DNA of 59,032 nucleotides, the filler included, from Actinomycetota bacterium (GTDB taxonomy: Bacteria; Actinomycetota; Actinomycetes; JAKEEW01), in assembly GCA_046725875.1 (NCBI GenBank). It is 4 parts of 4 records of this genome, joined end to end, with 100 filler letters (N's around TTAATTAATTAA, not from the genome) between each part and the next. Parts side by side here need not be neighbours in the genome. Positions count along the whole stretch, not along the records: positions 13,718 to 35,324 come from JBKOZJ010000173.1; 3 more parts are not named here. One strand, 5' to 3'. Shown piece by piece: positions 28,701 through 31,700 of the stretch. A program made the position numbers. The first letter of the stretch is position 1, and each line of letters begins with the position of its first letter.

Positions 28701-31700
28701 GCACCTGCCTCGACGTATGGGGCGACGTCGCGGCCGGGACGAAGCTCGACGGCGACCTCGTAGGGCGCCGTGGTGTCCCCCCGTAGATCGCGGACTGCTG
28801 CCACGGCTTGCGCGAATTGATCCACACCTTCGAGGTTGACCGGGAAGAAGCCGTCGTAACGGGCCGCTCGGCGCAGTGGCTTGACGTTGCCCGGGAACGC
28901 CGCGGCCCACACCGGTATCCGCGGCCGTTGCACCGGCCGAGGCAGGAACTGCACGTCATCGACGAGGTAATGCCTGCCGCGATGGTTGACCGGCTCGCCG
29001 GACCAGGCGGCCACAAGGATCGCGAGTGCCTCGTCGAGCATCTCGCCCCGCGCTCGATCGTCGACCTGCTCCCCGGTCTTTGAGAACTCGCCGGCGAACT
29101 GGTCCCCGCCCAGACCCACGCCGAGGATGAGGCGGCCACCGCTGAGCCGATCCAGCGTCGCGGTTTCCCGTGCCACCTTGGCCGGGCGGCGGCGCGCCAG
29201 CGGGGTGACCATGGGGCCCAGCATCACCTGCTCGGTCGCGGCCGCGATCGCCGCCAAGGTGATCCACGGATCGGCCACTTGCTTTATCGGCTCACGCCAG
29301 CGGAGCTGATCCCACACGAACACCCCGTGCCAGCCTCGCTCCTCCGCGTCGGCGGCCAGACGCGCCACCACCCGCGGGTCGGCAAGCTCCTCGAACAGGG
29401 GCAGCCACAGACCAGAGCGCATGTCGCTACGAAAGGAAGCCATGGAGTCGATCGGCGAGCTCTTTGGGCCGGCTCAAGGCGACGCAGTGCCCGCTATCGA
29501 TCTCGTCGGGAGTGATTCCCAGCCGTTCTGTGACGACCCGACGCAACCAGTCGACGGGAAACAGGCGGTCGTCGCGACACACCAACACCCTCGTCGGAAC
29601 GTCCGGCCACGCCCTCAGCGGCGAAGGCTCCGTCATGCGCGCTTCGGACTGGTGCCGCCCGCGCCGCACGGCCTCCGCCGCGAGGTCGGCGGGAACGTCG
29701 TGATAGAAGGTGGCGATCGTCCCCGCCTGCTCCTCATCCACGGGGTCACCACGTTCGGCGTCCTCGGATCTCGACGCCGCATAGTGCGTGTTTGCCCAAT
29801 AATCGTTCGGCGCCTCACCCGGAGCGGGGACCATCGCCGCCACCAACACCATCAGATCAACCGGCACCCGTTCGCACACCAGCGGCGCGGTGAACCCACC
29901 GAAGGACTGCGCCACCAGCACGAGATCCCGGCGGTCTCCGATTGCTGTGAGCACCGTATCGGCGTACTCGGGCAATCCGGCGGAGTCCTCGTCGCACGGC
30001 AGATCCATGGCGACGACCTCGTGGCCGCGATCACGAAGCTCGGGCTCCAGAAGATGCCAGTACCAAGCGGTGTCCCCCGCACCGTGGATCAACACGAACG
30101 TGGCCAAACCAGCCTCCTCGACTCGGTCAATAAACAAGGACTCCTCCTCGACCCAAAACTCATCGAAAGCCAGTGCTCTGCCTATGATTGACAGCGTGAG
30201 CATCACGCGTACTCAGCGATTTGGTCGCCCCGGCTGGTGGAGGAACGCCACCCGGGCGACTGCTACGCCCACCAACTGACACCCTGTGGCTCACAGCTCC
30301 GCCTCCGCTGGCCGGGGACTTCTGCACCCACCGTCCCCACTCCTGCCTCGGAGGCTTAGTCATGTCCCCCACCCTCTTGCGCCCCGATGCGCTCGGGCGA
30401 GATTTGTCGATCCGGGATCTCACGGATCCCACGCAGGGACCACATGCTGTCCAGTTGCTCCTCGAGGAGATCGTTTCGTCGCTGCAGCGGGGGTGGCCGC
30501 AGACCGAGGTCCAGGTCGTACTCGGCGACCGCGTCGTGACCCTCGCCGACAACTACTGGCATCTCGGGTACGCAGCGGACGCGGTGACCGTCGACTCCCG
30601 CTATACGCGCTACGTCGATGACAGCCGCGTCCTCCGCAGCCACTCCTCGGCGCTAATCCCGCCCGCCTTGCGGGCCCTGGCCAAATCCGCACCTGCTGAA
30701 CCAGCCGGCATGGACGTCCTGCTCGTCTGCCCGGGCCTCTGCTATCGCCGGGATGCGGTGGACCGGTTGCACACCGGCACGCCACATCAAGTCGATTTGT
30801 GGCGGGTCAGCAATCGGCGCCACCTTGCTGAAACCGACCTCGAGGAAATGATCACCAGCGTGGTGACAGGTGCATTGCCCAATGCGTCGTGGCGTACGGT
30901 CGCGACCGGGCATCCGTACACCATCGGTGGTCGTCAGATCGATGCGGCGATCCCGACCGAGAGCGGGCACGCCGGCGGACCGGACGGGATCGACGGGGAA
31001 CAGTGGGTCGAGATCGGCGAATGCGGCCTCGCCGCGCCGGCGGTGCTTTCAGGCTCTGGCCTCCGTTCCGCCGGCTCCCAGCTCGGAGCCGGAAGCGGTT
31101 CCCAGACGCCGCACTCAGACATGCCAAGTCGGACATGGACTGGGCTTGCGATGGGACTCGGCCTGGACCGGCTGCTCATGCTCCGCAAGGGGATTCCGGA
31201 CATCCGGTTGCTTCGCTCGTCCGATCCGCGGATTGCTGCCCAGTTGCTGGATCTCCGGCCCTATCAGGCAGTCTCCACGCTCCCGCCGGTCCATCGCGAC
31301 GTGTCTGTCGCGGTGGACGCTGATGCCGAGATCAGCGCCGAGGCTCTCGGGGATCGGGTGAGGGAGGCGCTAGGCGCCGATGCCGACGCCGTCGAGTCGG
31401 TCGCCCTGCTTGCCGTCGCCAGCTATGCCGACTTGCCTGACGTCGCACGGGGGCGGCTGGAGATGCAACCAGGGCAGCGGAATCTGCTGACGCGCATCGT
31501 GCTGCGGCCTTGGGATCGTACGCTGACCGACGCCGAGGCGAACCAGCTGCGGGACCGAATCTATGTCGCGCTCCATCAAGGGGGTGGTGGGTAGTCGATC
31601 AGCGCGTTCGTGAACGCCATCCCTGCCGCGCCCGCGCCGACCACCAAATCCGGGGCGAGCGGGTCATCGCCGCAGCCGTCGGCGTCGCCGCCAAGCTCGA

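What a model noticed while it worked through the whole genome (the two positions that open the first line are those of the whole stretch)
30362..31594. SrmL: bacterial single-chain PheRS-like ligase with the mitochondrial PheRS architecture and a remodelled amino-acid poc [...]
g03346 (410 aa) is a stand-alone PheS-like class II catalytic domain fused to an FDX-ACB anticodon-binding domain, beside the normal pheS/pheT pair elsewhere in the genome; its model superposes over its whole length on human mitochondrial PheRS, the only known monomeric PheRS. Boldest reading: it is a monomeric tRNA-charging (or tRNA-dependent) ligase whose pocket was rebuilt for a substrate other than phenylalanine, and it shows that the 'mitochondrial' catalytic-alpha + beta-B8 chimera exists in free-living Actinomycetes. 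New: a first structural and functional hypothesis for a family that NCBI only calls 'PheS-related mystery ligase'.
Evidence so far: Pfam tRNA-synt_2d (pfam.tsv) + FDX-ACB (precomputed, call 46); NCBIfam NF051887 'PheS-related mystery ligase SrmL' 459 bits (cut 300), pheS_mito TIGR00469 82 bits. AF2 model from a 20-sequence alignment: pLDDT 84.5, pTM 0.82. Foldseek against PDB: the six best hits are all human mitochondrial PheRS (5mgv, 3cmq and others; E 4e-25, TM 0.70/0.71 over about 405 residues), bacterial PheS chains cover only the catalytic half (TMq about 0.5). Profile alignment to PheS chains: LRSHSS = LRTHTS and the class II motif 2/3 arginines are kept (CYRRD, GLGLDR), but invariant changes sit at FHQxEG -> PHQxDLW, FPFTEPS -> HPYTxxG, GCGMVHP -> ECGLAAP (invariant columns in call 51). 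The 120 listed relatives ar [...]
(Added by a program. Inside this text positions count along the whole contig: they may not be those of the stretch shown here. "Call 12" and the like, gene names such as g00115 and contig names such as C1 are that model's own, and its searches are not shown. The text may have been shortened before it was handed on; [...] marks where a part breaks off. The agent that wrote the report below was given it as the finding of a first reader that could run no searches.)

Follow-up and report, generated by a model that had tools for sequence, protein, structure and literature searches.

The report
Orphan single-chain PheRS-like ligase SrmL
This soil actinobacterial gene encodes an extra enzyme built like the single-chain mitochondrial phenylalanine-tRNA synthetase, but its amino-acid pocket and its tRNA-reading surface are both rebuilt, so it probably attaches something other than phenylalanine to a target that is still unknown.

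Summary
Window 30362-31594 (+) encodes an intact 410-aa protein with a PheS-type class II catalytic core joined to an FDX-ACB (PheT-B8-like) domain. It scores 459 bits against NCBIfam NF051887 'SrmL' (cut-off 300). Its AF2 model (pLDDT 85.7) superposes over its full length on human mitochondrial PheRS (Z 34, rmsd 2.5 A). The genome also holds a normal pheS-pheT pair.

New here: across 42 divergent family members the adenylate-forming residues stay (motif 2 and 3 arginines 42/42). A uniform non-PheRS pocket signature is equally conserved (H184, Y186, E220, D145, W147, P141). The PheRS residues that read anticodon base G34 are gone, and a conserved Arg-bearing insertion follows them. Both domains are under purifying selection (dN/dS 0.15).

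No gene neighbour is conserved between lineages. No leader RNA, dedicated tRNA or publication was found.

Best reading (confidence 0.45): an active PheRS-derived amino-acid ligase with changed amino-acid and acceptor specificity. The acceptor is probably an RNA or tRNA, but no substrate is shown. The family is already named as a 'mystery ligase', and it is rare (7 of 401 sampled genomes of the phylum). Human cytosolic PheRS tolerates similar pocket changes, so a Phe substrate is not excluded.

The parts
30362..31594 (+). srmL coding sequence, 410 aa plus stop
   Evidence: ORF, translation, NF051887 459 bits, dN/dS 0.152 against the 80%-identical relative L107
30350..30354 (+). GGAGG ribosome-binding site, 7 nt before the ATG
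   Evidence: read directly from the sequence
30410..31243 (+). PheS-type class II catalytic module (about residues 17-294); the N-terminal coiled-coil domain of PheS is absent
   Evidence: Pfam tRNA-synt_2d. P0001 residue 12 aligns to Mtb PheS residue 94. VIA-align: model 26-296 matches E. coli PheS 105-327
30632..30649 (+). LRSHSS motif (residues 91-96), counterpart of PheS LRTHTS; H94 aligns with Mtb alpha-His175, which binds the alpha-amino group
   Evidence: roles from PMC8136816 section 17; R92 42/42, H94 is H18/Q21 of 42
30734..30802 (+). motif 2 region, residues 125-147 (GLCYRRDAVDRLHTGTPHQVDLW). R129 is the catalytic Arg. P141 replaces the adenine-stacking Phe, D145 replaces Glu, and W147 is family-specific
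   Evidence: alignment; counts (R129 42/42, P141 31/42, D145 40/42, W147 42/42)
30911..30937 (+). HPYTIGGRQ (residues 184-192), replacing PheS FPFTEPSAE. H184 and Y186 sit where Mtb Phe255 and Phe257 hold the Phe ring
   Evidence: H184 34/42, Y186 40/42, T187 31/42
30953..31000 (+). lineage-specific low-complexity insertion 1 (residues 198-213), in the hairpin over the active site
   Evidence: alignment A1; pLDDT below 50 at 201-211; dN/dS is higher in this region (0.25)
31019..31039 (+). ECGLAAP (residues 220-226), replacing PheS GCGMVHP. E220 sits at the Mtb Gly282 position in the Phe cavity and A224 at the Val286 position
   Evidence: E220 38/42, G222 42/42
31067..31132 (+). lineage-specific low-complexity insertion 2 (residues 236-257), just before motif 3
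   Evidence: alignment A1; pLDDT below 50 at 241-253
31142..31171 (+). motif 3 (residues 261-270, GLAMGLGLDR). A263 aligns with the PheRS specificity Ala, and R270 is the motif 3 Arg
   Evidence: A263 35/42, R270 42/42
31187..31258 (+). conserved linker or hinge (residues 276-299, KGIPDIRLLRSSDPRIAAQLLDLR)
   Evidence: K276, D280 and Q294 are invariant in A2; dN/dS 0.046 for residues 260-300
31259..31576 (+). FDX-ACB (PheT B8 / mtPheRS ABD-like) domain, residues 300-405. It keeps R-D313-x-S315. LLAVA (349-353) replaces the G34-reading LFDVY. A family-specific insertion follows, with R365, Q372 and N374
   Evidence: Pfam; alignments to Mtb PheT, human mtPheRS and the genome's own PheT; counts; dN/dS 0.153

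Best explanation
SrmL is a catalytically active single-chain enzyme that descends from bacterial-type PheRS. It joins the alpha-subunit catalytic module, without the N-terminal coiled coil, to a B8-type ferredoxin-fold domain, as in mitochondrial PheRS. Inferred mechanism: it binds ATP and an alpha-amino acid and forms an aminoacyl-adenylate using the retained class II machinery. It then passes the aminoacyl group to an acceptor held by the rebuilt C-terminal domain, most likely the 3' end of an RNA such as a tRNA. Its side-chain pocket is not the PheRS pocket. His184, Tyr186, Glu220, Asp145 and Trp147 replace Phe, Phe, Gly, Glu and Leu, and this signature is nearly uniform across the family. 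That argues for one conserved substrate that is more polar than Phe, for example a ring-substituted aromatic or a basic amino acid. The acceptor-reading face is also changed: the G34-reading motif is lost and a conserved Arg-bearing insertion is gained, so the acceptor is not read as PheRS reads tRNA-Phe. Shown: the architecture, conservation, purifying selection and the positions of the changes. Inferred: catalysis, the nature of the amino acid, an RNA acceptor and the monomeric state.
For: Architecture: 3cmq_A Z 34.0, rmsd 2.5 A, 344 aligned; Foldseek ranks 1-6 are mtPheRS. Catalytic residues kept in 42 divergent members: R129 (Mtb alpha-Arg201) 42/42, R270 (Arg312) 42/42, R92 42/42, H137 (His209) 36/42, Q143 (Gln215) 36/42, D131 (Asp203) 31/42 plus 5 Glu, H94 (His175, alpha-amino contact) as His or Gln in 39/42. 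Roles come from PMC8136816 section 17 (read). Family-specific conserved changes at ligand-contact positions: H184 34/42, Y186 40/42, E220 38/42, D145 40/42, W147 42/42, P141 31/42. The 3'-end gate HPAR..DTFY becomes DAVTxDxRYTRY. C-terminal domain: D313 31/42 and S315 39/42 are kept (Mtb beta-Asp745 and Ser747, which contact A36/A37 ribose and A35). Asp778 and Phe780 (G34 readers) become S/G/A and T/W/A, in three alignment methods. The insertion carries R365 in 35/42 and N374 in 34/42. Purifying selection: dN/dS 0.152 overall, 0.111 in the catalytic part, 0.153 in the ABD. It is an extra copy beside canonical pheS-pheT, also in G001, G002 and G004. The family is large: 342 clusters at 50% identity with E<=1e-30.
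Against: No substrate evidence of any kind. No tRNA gene is consistently near srmL (3 of 86 loci have one within 2.5 kb). The genome's 41 ARAGORN tRNA calls include no convincing extra tRNA. No leader RNA turned up in 7 loci. No neighbour is conserved across 13 annotated loci. The adenine-stacking Phe is replaced by Pro in 31/42, so ATP binding could be altered. Human cytosolic PheRS has Asn410/Tyr412/Asn434/Phe438 at four of the changed pocket positions and still uses Phe (PMC8136816 section 21), and SrmL keeps the specificity Ala (A263). FDX-ACB scores below Pfam's gathering score for this protein (27.0 against 31.1). Pocket geometry was inferred from sequence alignment to solved structures and was not measured on the model. 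AF2 may have learned the closed mtPheRS arrangement.
Confidence: 0.45

Rival explanations
1. SrmL is a genuine second phenylalanyl-tRNA synthetase: a compact, editing-free, single-chain isoform that charges tRNA-Phe with Phe. It might serve under particular conditions or be insensitive to an inhibitor of the main enzyme.
For: Its closest families are all PheRS. Alpha-amino, carboxyl and ATP contacts are kept, as are the specificity Ala A263 (35/42) and T187 (31/42). Human cytosolic PheRS shows that Asn/Tyr at the Phe255/Phe257 positions and Asn at the Gly282 position are compatible with Phe (PMC8136816 section 21). D313 and S315, which contact the A35-A37 region in Mtb, are kept.
Against: Scores lie far below both PheRS equivalog cut-offs (72 against 237; 82 against 258). 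An ionisable Glu (38/42) sits in the hydrophobic cavity, together with an invariant Trp147. The G34 readers Asp778 and Phe780, called highly conserved and the primary discriminator in PMC8136816 section 18, are lost, while the same genome's PheT keeps LFDVY. According to the same paper, the human mtPheRS aminoacylation site stays close to the bacterial one; the only exception it names among the adenylate-site-lining residues is Val286 to Met. SrmL is not close in that way.
Confidence: 0.2
2. SrmL activates an amino acid but transfers it to a non-tRNA acceptor such as a protein, a carrier protein, a lipid-linked molecule or a small molecule. Known aaRS paralogs do this (EpmA/GenX on EF-P, amino acid:carrier-protein ligases, AsnA). 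The FDX-ACB domain would then be reused as a protein-binding or ligand-binding module.
For: The anticodon-reading motif is lost and the 3'-end gate is rewritten. No dedicated tRNA was found. The class II paralogs GenX (3a5y, Z 13.7), the aa:CP ligase homologue Bll0957 (3mey, Z 14.7) and AsnA (11as, Z 13.1) share the core fold. The review PMC7373986 (passages read) names HisZ and YadB as paralogs with other roles. In Kribbellaceae srmL lies next to rplK-rplA.
Against: No candidate acceptor gene is conserved beside srmL in 13 annotated loci. The ABD is under the same purifying selection as the core and keeps D313 and S315, which contact tRNA in Mtb PheRS. The conserved hinge resembles the one that lets the mtPheRS ABD swing onto tRNA (PMC5521548, introduction passages read). 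The ribosomal-gene adjacency is confined to one family of close relatives.
Confidence: 0.25
3. SrmL is a non-catalytic pseudo-synthetase, that is, a regulatory or scaffolding paralog like HisZ.
For: The adenine-stacking Phe is replaced by Pro (31/42), and the HPAR motif is lost. HisZ-type chains appear among the fold matches (1z7m Z 13.9, 3od1 Z 13.5).
Against: Motif 2 and motif 3 arginines are invariant in 42/42, and H137, Q143, D131 and E217 are mostly kept. That pattern is expected for a working adenylate site. No partner enzyme is conserved nearby.
Confidence: 0.05

Closest known systems
Mitochondrial phenylalanyl-tRNA synthetase (FARS2 / PheRS-M; PDB 3cmq, 5mgv, 3tup)
   Same: Single chain made of the alpha-type catalytic module plus a B8-type anticodon-binding domain, with no editing domain. 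Full-length superposition on the closed form: Z 34.0, rmsd 2.5 A. A conserved hinge lies between the domains.
   Different: Only 20-25% identity and 82 bits against the 258 cut-off of TIGR00469. The SrmL pocket has His/Tyr/Glu/Trp where PheRS has Phe/Phe/Gly/Leu. mtPheRS keeps I-D-K-F at the G34-reading strand, whereas SrmL has L-x-E/V-T/A followed by an extra insertion. SrmL is bacterial and sits beside a full pheS-pheT pair.
Bacterial PheS (alpha subunit of (alpha-beta)2 PheRS; for example M. tuberculosis 7daw_A, E. coli 6oz5_A)
   Same: Best sequence matches for the catalytic half (profile 97-101 bits). LR[ST][HQ][ST]S, the motif 2 and 3 arginines, the specificity Ala and the C-terminal G-I-x-D-I-R segment are shared.
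   Different: SrmL lacks the N-terminal coiled-coil domain (alignment starts near Mtb residue 94). It carries its own B8-like domain and so does not depend on PheT for one. Residues at the Phe ring, the Phe cavity, the adenine stack and the 3'-end gate are changed. It scores 72 bits against the 237 cut-off of TIGR00468.
PheT B8 / FDX-ACB anticodon-binding domain
   Same: Ferredoxin-like fold. R-D-x-S/A and R-T-L-T motifs are shared.
   Different: Weak sequence similarity (E 0.0035-0.06; hhalign probability 43%). The F-D-x-F/Y G34 motif is absent, and a 10-residue insertion with conserved Arg follows that strand.
PheRS-related synthetases with other specificities (SepRS, PylRS)
   Same: They share the subclass IIc-type catalytic fold (2odr_C Z 19.6, 2zni_A Z 18.4). 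They are precedents for a PheRS-like core that has been retuned to a polar or non-canonical amino acid and a different tRNA.
   Different: Much weaker sequence relation (SepRS 22 bits). They have different tRNA-binding domains and oligomeric states. SrmL sits clearly on the bacterial/mitochondrial PheRS branch by score.
NCBIfam NF051887 'PheS-related mystery ligase SrmL'
   Same: This protein is a member: 459 bits against a cut-off of 300. Relatives in Kribbella, Actinopolymorpha, Flindersiella, Kitasatospora and Arthrobacter carry the name.
   Different: Nothing differs in kind. The window's lineage has two extra low-complexity insertions (residues 198-213 and 236-257).

Membership tests
NCBIfam NF051887 SrmL | whole-protein score at or above the curated cut-off of 300 bits, over the full model | tested here: met
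   459.1 bits in two stretches covering model positions 1-349; the split is caused by the insertion
Class II aminoacyl-tRNA synthetase catalytic core | motif 2 and motif 3 arginines that hold ATP and the adenylate | tested here: met
   R129 and R270 are invariant in 42/42 divergent members and align to Mtb alpha-Arg201 and Arg312
Class II aminoacyl-tRNA synthetase catalytic core | amino-acid-dependent adenylate formation and transfer to tRNA | not testable with these tools
   needs ATP-PPi exchange and aminoacylation assays
Bacterial PheS (TIGR00468) | equivalog score of at least 237.45 bits | tested here: not met
   72.1 bits
Bacterial PheS (TIGR00468) | N-terminal coiled-coil tRNA-binding domain | tested here: not met
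   P0001 residue 12 aligns to Mtb PheS residue 94; model 26-296 matches E. coli PheS 105-327
PheRS (any type) | Phe-ring pocket as in the bacterial and mitochondrial enzymes (Mtb Phe255, Phe257, Thr258, Ala305, Gly282, Val286) | tested here: not met
   H184, Y186, T187, A263, E220 and A224. Thr and Ala are kept and the other four are changed. Human cytosolic PheRS also varies at four of these positions (PMC8136816 section 21), so this test lowers but does not exclude a Phe substrate.
Mitochondrial PheRS (TIGR00469) | equivalog score of at least 258.35 bits | tested here: not met
   82.0 bits
Mitochondrial PheRS (TIGR00469) | single chain of catalytic module plus anticodon-binding domain | tested here: met
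   3cmq_A Z 34.0 over model residues 1-410; TM 0.70
Mitochondrial PheRS (TIGR00469) | monomeric state | tested here: inconclusive
   the homodimer prediction gave no verdict; needs size-exclusion chromatography or light scattering
PheRS anticodon-binding domain (FDX-ACB, PF03147) | Pfam gathering score of 31.1 bits | tested here: inconclusive
   27.0 bits by hmmscan; 31.1 with neighbours in the frame; PF03147 is precomputed for 117 of the 120 relatives listed, P0001 included; the fold is matched within the 3cmq superposition
PheRS anticodon-binding domain (FDX-ACB, PF03147) | G34 recognition residues (Mtb beta-Asp778, Phe780; F-D-x-F/Y) | tested here: not met
   L350-A351-V352-A353 in this protein. 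Family counts: position 351 is S18/G6/A4/D4 of 42; position 353 is T20/W9/A4/F3 of 42. The alignment is consistent across.

The most novel reading that the evidence does not exclude
SrmL is a previously unrecognised aminoacyl-RNA synthetase specificity that evolved from PheRS, much as SepRS and PylRS are PheRS-like enzymes with other specificities. On this reading it is a single-chain enzyme that loads a non-phenylalanine amino acid (polar, or a ring-substituted aromatic) onto a particular tRNA or tRNA-like RNA, which it recognises through a rebuilt ferredoxin-fold domain. The product would feed a non-ribosomal use of aminoacyl-tRNA, or a conditional recoding or mischarging function, in soil Actinomycetota and some other bacteria.
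Probability: 0.3. Interest if true: 0.85.

Novelty: new variant of a known kind. Interest (0 to 1): 0.6.

Why it matters
Paralogs of aminoacyl-tRNA synthetases have repeatedly turned out to do unexpected chemistry. Examples are EF-P lysylation, tRNA queuosine glutamylation, carrier-protein loading, and charging with phosphoserine or pyrrolysine. SrmL is a large, strongly conserved and entirely uncharacterised family: 342 clusters at 50% identity, and relatives in at least 580 stretches of a one-genome-per-species collection. Its architecture had been described in print only for organellar PheRS. This analysis turns a database label ('mystery ligase') into concrete, testable statements. The adenylate site should be active. 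The amino-acid pocket has one uniform non-Phe signature. The acceptor is not read the way PheRS reads tRNA-Phe. There is no operon partner to lean on, so biochemistry has to come first. If the substrate is a non-canonical amino acid or an unusual RNA, SrmL would also be a compact, naturally orthogonal synthetase scaffold. If it proves to be only a second PheRS, it would still be the first bacterial single-chain PheRS.

Tried and rejected
2. Gene-context inference: flanking genes were annotated at 13 loci from different lineages (the window; 8 loci; 4 loci), and ORFs from all fetched loci were clustered. Nothing is shared between genera. Kribbella synteny (rplK-rplA, an FMN-dependent dehydrogenase, a formyltransferase) is confined to close relatives. 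Same-family genomes (L105, L106, L004) and the 79-80% identical metagenome contigs (L107, L108) share none of the window's neighbours.
3. Downstream GNAT as a partner: rejected, because it is absent beside srmL in all those relatives.
4. Leader RNA or T-box: Rfam gathering scan of 7 loci, including the window region, found only a tmRNA and two tRNAs, none next to srmL. A first attempt with 12 loci exceeded the size limit.
5. Dedicated tRNA: the G000 tRNA set (41 ARAGORN calls) has one tRNA-Phe(GAA) and one odd call, tRNA-?(gcta), with a poor D-arm in 74% GC sequence, judged a false positive. The tRNA-Val(CAC) 97 nt after srmL in L107 and L108 does not recur elsewhere.
6. Homodimer prediction: no verdict, score 0.00 against a mark of 0.42. 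It counts neither for nor against a monomer.
7. Expression: no RNA holder listed for the stretch; 5 DNA or unknown-type runs hold small shares of its words.
8. Net charge and pI as a hint of RNA binding: SrmL (pI 5.39), its ABD (median pI 4.97), the genome's PheS (5.40) and PheT B8 (5.33) are all acidic, so this is uninformative.
9. Defence systems: no PADLOC hit for SrmL or its two neighbours.
10. Literature: 'SrmL' has 0 occurrences. A search for 'FDX-ACB / PheS paralog / PheRS-like / PheS-like / PheRS paralog / monomeric PheRS' found 11 papers (9 listed), none on a bacterial SrmL-type protein; passages were read. A five-term search on duplicated aaRS in Streptomyces found 3 papers (2 listed), none relevant.
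11. The single-protein scan of genome contigs found nothing because its patterns were too specific. The alignment-based scan worked.
12. A phylogeny that includes mitochondrial PheRS was not built, because no tool returned mtPheRS sequences as usable records. Whether the fusion is shared with mitochondria or arose independently is left open.
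Full report
WHAT IS THERE. The window is several contigs joined by runs of N. 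The gene lies on contig G000:C173, which is window 13718-35324. An ORF is open from 30221 to 31594 on the + strand. The ATG at 30362 gives a 410-aa protein (P0001). It is preceded by GGAGG at a 7-nt spacing and coincides with the N-termini of homologs. The finding's coordinates are therefore correct window coordinates.

FAMILY AND FOLD. Pfam finds the PheRS class II core (tRNA-synt_2d, 83.8 bits, residues 83-294). It also finds a sub-threshold FDX-ACB domain (27.0 bits against 31.1, residues 305-405). NCBIfam places the protein in NF051887 'PheS-related mystery ligase SrmL' at 459.1 bits (cut-off 300). The true PheRS equivalogs fall far short: pheS_mito 82.0 against 258, and pheS 72.1 against 237.

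An AF2 model from 24 family sequences has pLDDT 85.7 and pTM 0.84, with low confidence only in two lineage-specific insertions. Foldseek ranks six human mitochondrial PheRS entries first (E 1.4e-25, TM 0.70/0.71), while bacterial PheS chains cover only half of the model. An independent all-against-representatives structural alignment gives 3cmq_A Z 34.0, rmsd 2.5 A, with 344 residues aligned across model 1-410. E. coli PheS follows at Z 24.2 over residues 26-296, then SepRS at 19.6 and PylRS at 18.4. The tRNA-bound open form (3tup) matches less well (TM 0.55), so the model is in the closed arrangement.

IT IS AN EXTRA COPY. The same genome has a canonical pheS (329.7 bits for PF01409) directly followed by a pheT-type frame of 863 codons with a strong FDX-ACB match (86.8 bits), both on contig C37. 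ARAGORN makes 41 tRNA calls in this 89%-complete assembly, including a single tRNA-Phe(GAA). G001, G002 and G004, which also carry SrmL, have a separate canonical PheS-level match as well.

DISTRIBUTION.
- Among 41 genomes (G000 and its 40 relatives), 3 score above the SrmL cut-off, and a fourth has the gene split over two contig ends. This tally includes five unpublished genomes, none of which has an SrmL-level match.
- In an even sample of the phylum, 7 of 401 genomes (G000 included) match at E<=1e-60 and 5 pass the cut-off. The matches fall in three families.
Most of the 80 kept loci are Kribbella. Others are Actinopolymorpha, Kitasatospora, two Streptomyces records, Nocardia crassostreae, and MAGs labelled Jiangellaceae, Pseudonocardiaceae and Acidimicrobiia.
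- The exhaustive profile search finds 342 clusters at 50% identity with E<=1e-30.
- Of ten divergent representatives looked up, one cluster is Arthrobacter/Micrococcaceae (already labelled SrmL) and one is a Pseudomonadota MAG. One more carries only a generic JGI label, 'phenylalanyl-tRNA synthetase alpha chain', and the other seven have no name.
- The ESM Atlas lists SrmL-type bacterial clusters first and a chordate FDX-ACB cluster at rank 25.

The family is therefore rare and patchy but large, and it is already catalogued without a function.

ACTIVE SITE. I aligned SrmL to M. tuberculosis PheS. Chain 7daw_A carries native numbering, which I confirmed because His175, Arg201 and the rest fall where the paper places them. 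Residue roles come from the Mtb PheRS structure paper (PMC8136816; sections 17-21 read). Each position was counted in A1 (24 close members) and A2 (42 divergent representatives at 28-55% identity to P0001).

Kept:
- R129 (motif 2 Arg201, which binds the carboxyl and alpha-phosphate) 42/42
- R270 (motif 3 Arg312) 42/42
- R92 42/42
- H137 (His209, one face of the adenine sandwich) 36/42
- Q143 (Gln215) 36/42
- H142 40/42
- D131 (Asp203, Mg and adenine) 31/42, plus 5 Glu
- E217 (Glu279, ribose) 29/42
- H94 (His175, alpha-amino group) as His 18 or Gln 21 of 42
- T187 (Thr258) 31/42
- A263 (Ala305, ring contact and specificity) 35/42

Changed, yet conserved within the family:
- P141 for the adenine-stacking Phe213 (31/42)
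- D145 for Glu217 (40/42)
- W147 for Leu219 (42/42)
- H184 for Phe255 (34/42)
- Y186 for Phe257 (40/42)
- E220 for Gly282 in the Phe cavity (38/42)
- R130 for Thr202 (35/42)
- The 3'-end gate HPAR..DTFY (His152-Tyr162) reads DAVTxDxRYTRY. His152, which contacts the A76 phosphate, becomes A/G/S/D, and Asp159 becomes Tyr or His.

The per-sequence table shows a nearly uniform pocket signature (H-Y-T-E-A plus W) across the family. This argues for one conserved substrate, not many. The pattern is that of a working adenylate-forming site for an alpha-amino acid whose side-chain pocket has become more polar.

There is an important caveat. The same paper notes that human cytosolic PheRS has Asn410, Tyr412, Asn434 and Phe438 at the Phe255, Phe257, Gly282 and Val286 positions and is still a PheRS. 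Pocket substitutions alone therefore do not prove a new substrate. By contrast, the paper says the human mitochondrial enzyme's aminoacylation site shares high similarity with the Mtb one, and the only exception it names among the residues lining the adenylate site is Val286 to Met. SrmL is thus clearly not a conservative mtPheRS-type enzyme. A review (PMC7373986, passages read) states that mitochondrial PheRS lacks the conserved specificity Ala. SrmL keeps it, which is a bacterial-PheS-like trait. I did not verify the mitochondrial residue myself.

ACCEPTOR-BINDING DOMAIN. In Mtb PheRS the B8 domain reads the anticodon mainly through G34: Phe780 stacks on it, and Asp778 and Arg830 hydrogen-bond to it. 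Ser747 and Thr793 touch A35, and Asp745 touches the A36/A37 riboses (PMC8136816 section 18). Three alignments place SrmL L350-A351-V352-A353 opposite F777-D778-V779-F780:
- single sequence against Mtb PheT
- a 14-sequence profile of the C-terminal domain against Mtb PheT and human mtPheRS
- hhalign of that profile against the genome's own PheT C-terminus

Family-wide, these positions read I/L/V, then S/G/A, then a poorly conserved residue (most often Glu or Arg), then T20/W9/A4/F3 of 42. The genome's own PheT has L-F-D-V-Y there, and human mtPheRS has I-D-K-F. SrmL keeps D313 (31/42) and S315 (39/42). Immediately after that strand it has a 10-residue insertion that AF2 models as a helix (residues 360-366), with R365 in 35/42, N374 in 34/42 and Q372 in 25/42. 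These alignments are weak in score (E 0.0035-0.06; hhalign probability 43%), but they agree with one another and with the predicted strand. The conclusion is that the domain is maintained and its ligand face is rebuilt. If the ligand is a tRNA anticodon loop, it is not read as PheRS reads GAA.

SELECTION. Against the 80%-identical metagenomic relative L107, dN/dS is 0.152 overall. By region it is 0.111 for the first 195 codons, 0.254 across the insertion region, 0.046 for motif 3 plus the linker, and 0.153 for the C-terminal domain. Both domains are functional.

CONTEXT.
- In the window, srmL is flanked by a divergent alpha/beta hydrolase (29427-30206, -). Downstream on the same strand lie a GNAT (31788-32492), a proline-iminopeptidase-family hydrolase (32662-33627; TIGR01250 294 bits), an unassigned ORF and a HIT protein. 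Upstream there is an F420-type LLM oxidoreductase.
- None of these is found beside srmL in same-family genomes or in the 79-80% identical contigs.
- Across 13 annotated loci from different lineages, nothing recurs.
- Kribbellaceae place srmL next to rplK-rplA.
- One Pseudonocardiaceae MAG has an MprF/LysX-type aminoacyl-tRNA-dependent lipid transferase about 1.2 kb upstream.
- Rfam finds no leader RNA, and PADLOC finds nothing.
- Only 3 of 86 loci have any tRNA gene within 2.5 kb. Two of them are the near-identical relatives with tRNA-Val(CAC) 97 nt downstream. In G000 that tRNA lies at the end of another contig.

srmL therefore behaves as a stand-alone gene, and context gives no handle on its function.

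INTERPRETATION. The most economical reading is that SrmL is an active PheRS-derived ligase with altered amino-acid and acceptor specificity (confidence 0.45 for the whole chain). My own estimates for the steps are roughly 0.8 that it forms an adenylate, 0.65 that the amino acid is not Phe, and 0.5 that the acceptor is an RNA or tRNA.

The rivals are:
- a true second PheRS (0.2). For: the retained Ala and Thr and the human cytosolic precedent. Against: Glu220, Trp147 and the lost G34 readers.
- a ligase for a non-RNA acceptor (0.25). For: the rewritten 3'-end gate and anticodon face. Against: the maintained hinge, the retained D313 and S315, and the absence of any conserved partner.
- a pseudo-enzyme (0.05). 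Against: the invariant arginines.

Monomericity is unproven, since the homodimer job gave no verdict.

NOVELTY. The family and its name already exist in NCBIfam, UniRef and the Atlas, and its domain architecture is visible in Pfam annotations. Three literature searches found nothing on it. The papers I read describe the monomeric form only for organelles (PMC5521548 and PMC12525003, passages read). What is new here is the residue-level picture (which PheRS functions are kept, and which are replaced by conserved alternatives), the loss of G34 read-out, the lack of any operon partner, and the prevalence figures. I rate it a new variant of a known kind, of real but moderate interest until a substrate is found.

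Noticed in passing
L107:1536-1609 and L108:700-773; G000:C32:7498-7571: In the two metagenome contigs whose SrmL is 79-80% identical to the window's, a tRNA-Val(CAC) gene lies 97 nt after the srmL stop on the same strand. In G000 the matching tRNA sits at the end of a different contig, and other genes follow srmL. The region next to this tRNA has been rearranged in one of the lineages.
   Followed up: partly
L081:4787-8815 (-), Pseudonocardiaceae MAG: A protein with an MprF/LysX-type LPG_synthase_C domain (293.9 bits) plus the lysyl-tRNA-synthetase transmembrane region ends about 1.2 kb upstream of srmL, on the opposite strand. It uses aminoacyl-tRNA, but it is seen in only 1 of 13 annotated loci.
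   Followed up: partly
L033, L070, L101 and other Kribbellaceae loci, just upstream of position 10001: In Kribbellaceae, srmL lies next to the ribosomal protein genes rplK-rplA. In L070 and L101 it is directly downstream of rplA on the same strand. This synteny is not seen outside that family.
   Followed up: partly
G000:C25:22526-22622: ARAGORN calls a 97-nt 'tRNA-?(Ser|Pyl)' with an 8-nt anticodon loop (gcta), a weak D-arm and 74% GC. It is probably a false positive in GC-rich sequence.
   Followed up: partly
L092 (Nocardia crassostreae), L093 (Streptomyces sp. 8N114), L090/L102 (Kitasatospora); L064 ('Streptomyces sp. SID13031'): The Nocardia and Streptomyces SrmL C-terminal domains share a 2-residue deletion and motifs with the Kitasatospora type, which hints at horizontal transfer or shared descent. 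The SID13031 locus has Kribbella-type flanking genes, so that record's organism label may be wrong.
   Followed up: no
window 13618-13717, 35325-35424, 50653-50752: Runs of N split the window into at least four separate contigs, so genes beyond 13718-35324 are not physical neighbours of srmL.
   Followed up: yes
window 26279-28267 (-): A 662-aa ORF with coding-like GC3 has no Pfam or NCBIfam match.
   Followed up: no
window 13722-21474 (+): Two very large FtsX-type permease genes (1054 and 956 aa as read from the first start codon) are followed by two ABC ATPase genes, forming a MacB/FtsX-like exporter cluster.
   Followed up: no
G000:C62:78539-78634: ARAGORN finds a tRNA-SeC(TCA) gene in the genome, which suggests this actinobacterium uses selenocysteine.
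   Followed up: no
A2 rows P0147, P0168, P0170, P0182, P0184: Several divergent, low-GC-looking family members carry N-terminal extensions of 20-50 residues. In P0170 (a Pseudomonadota MAG) the extension is hydrophobic and looks like a signal or targeting peptide.
   Followed up: no
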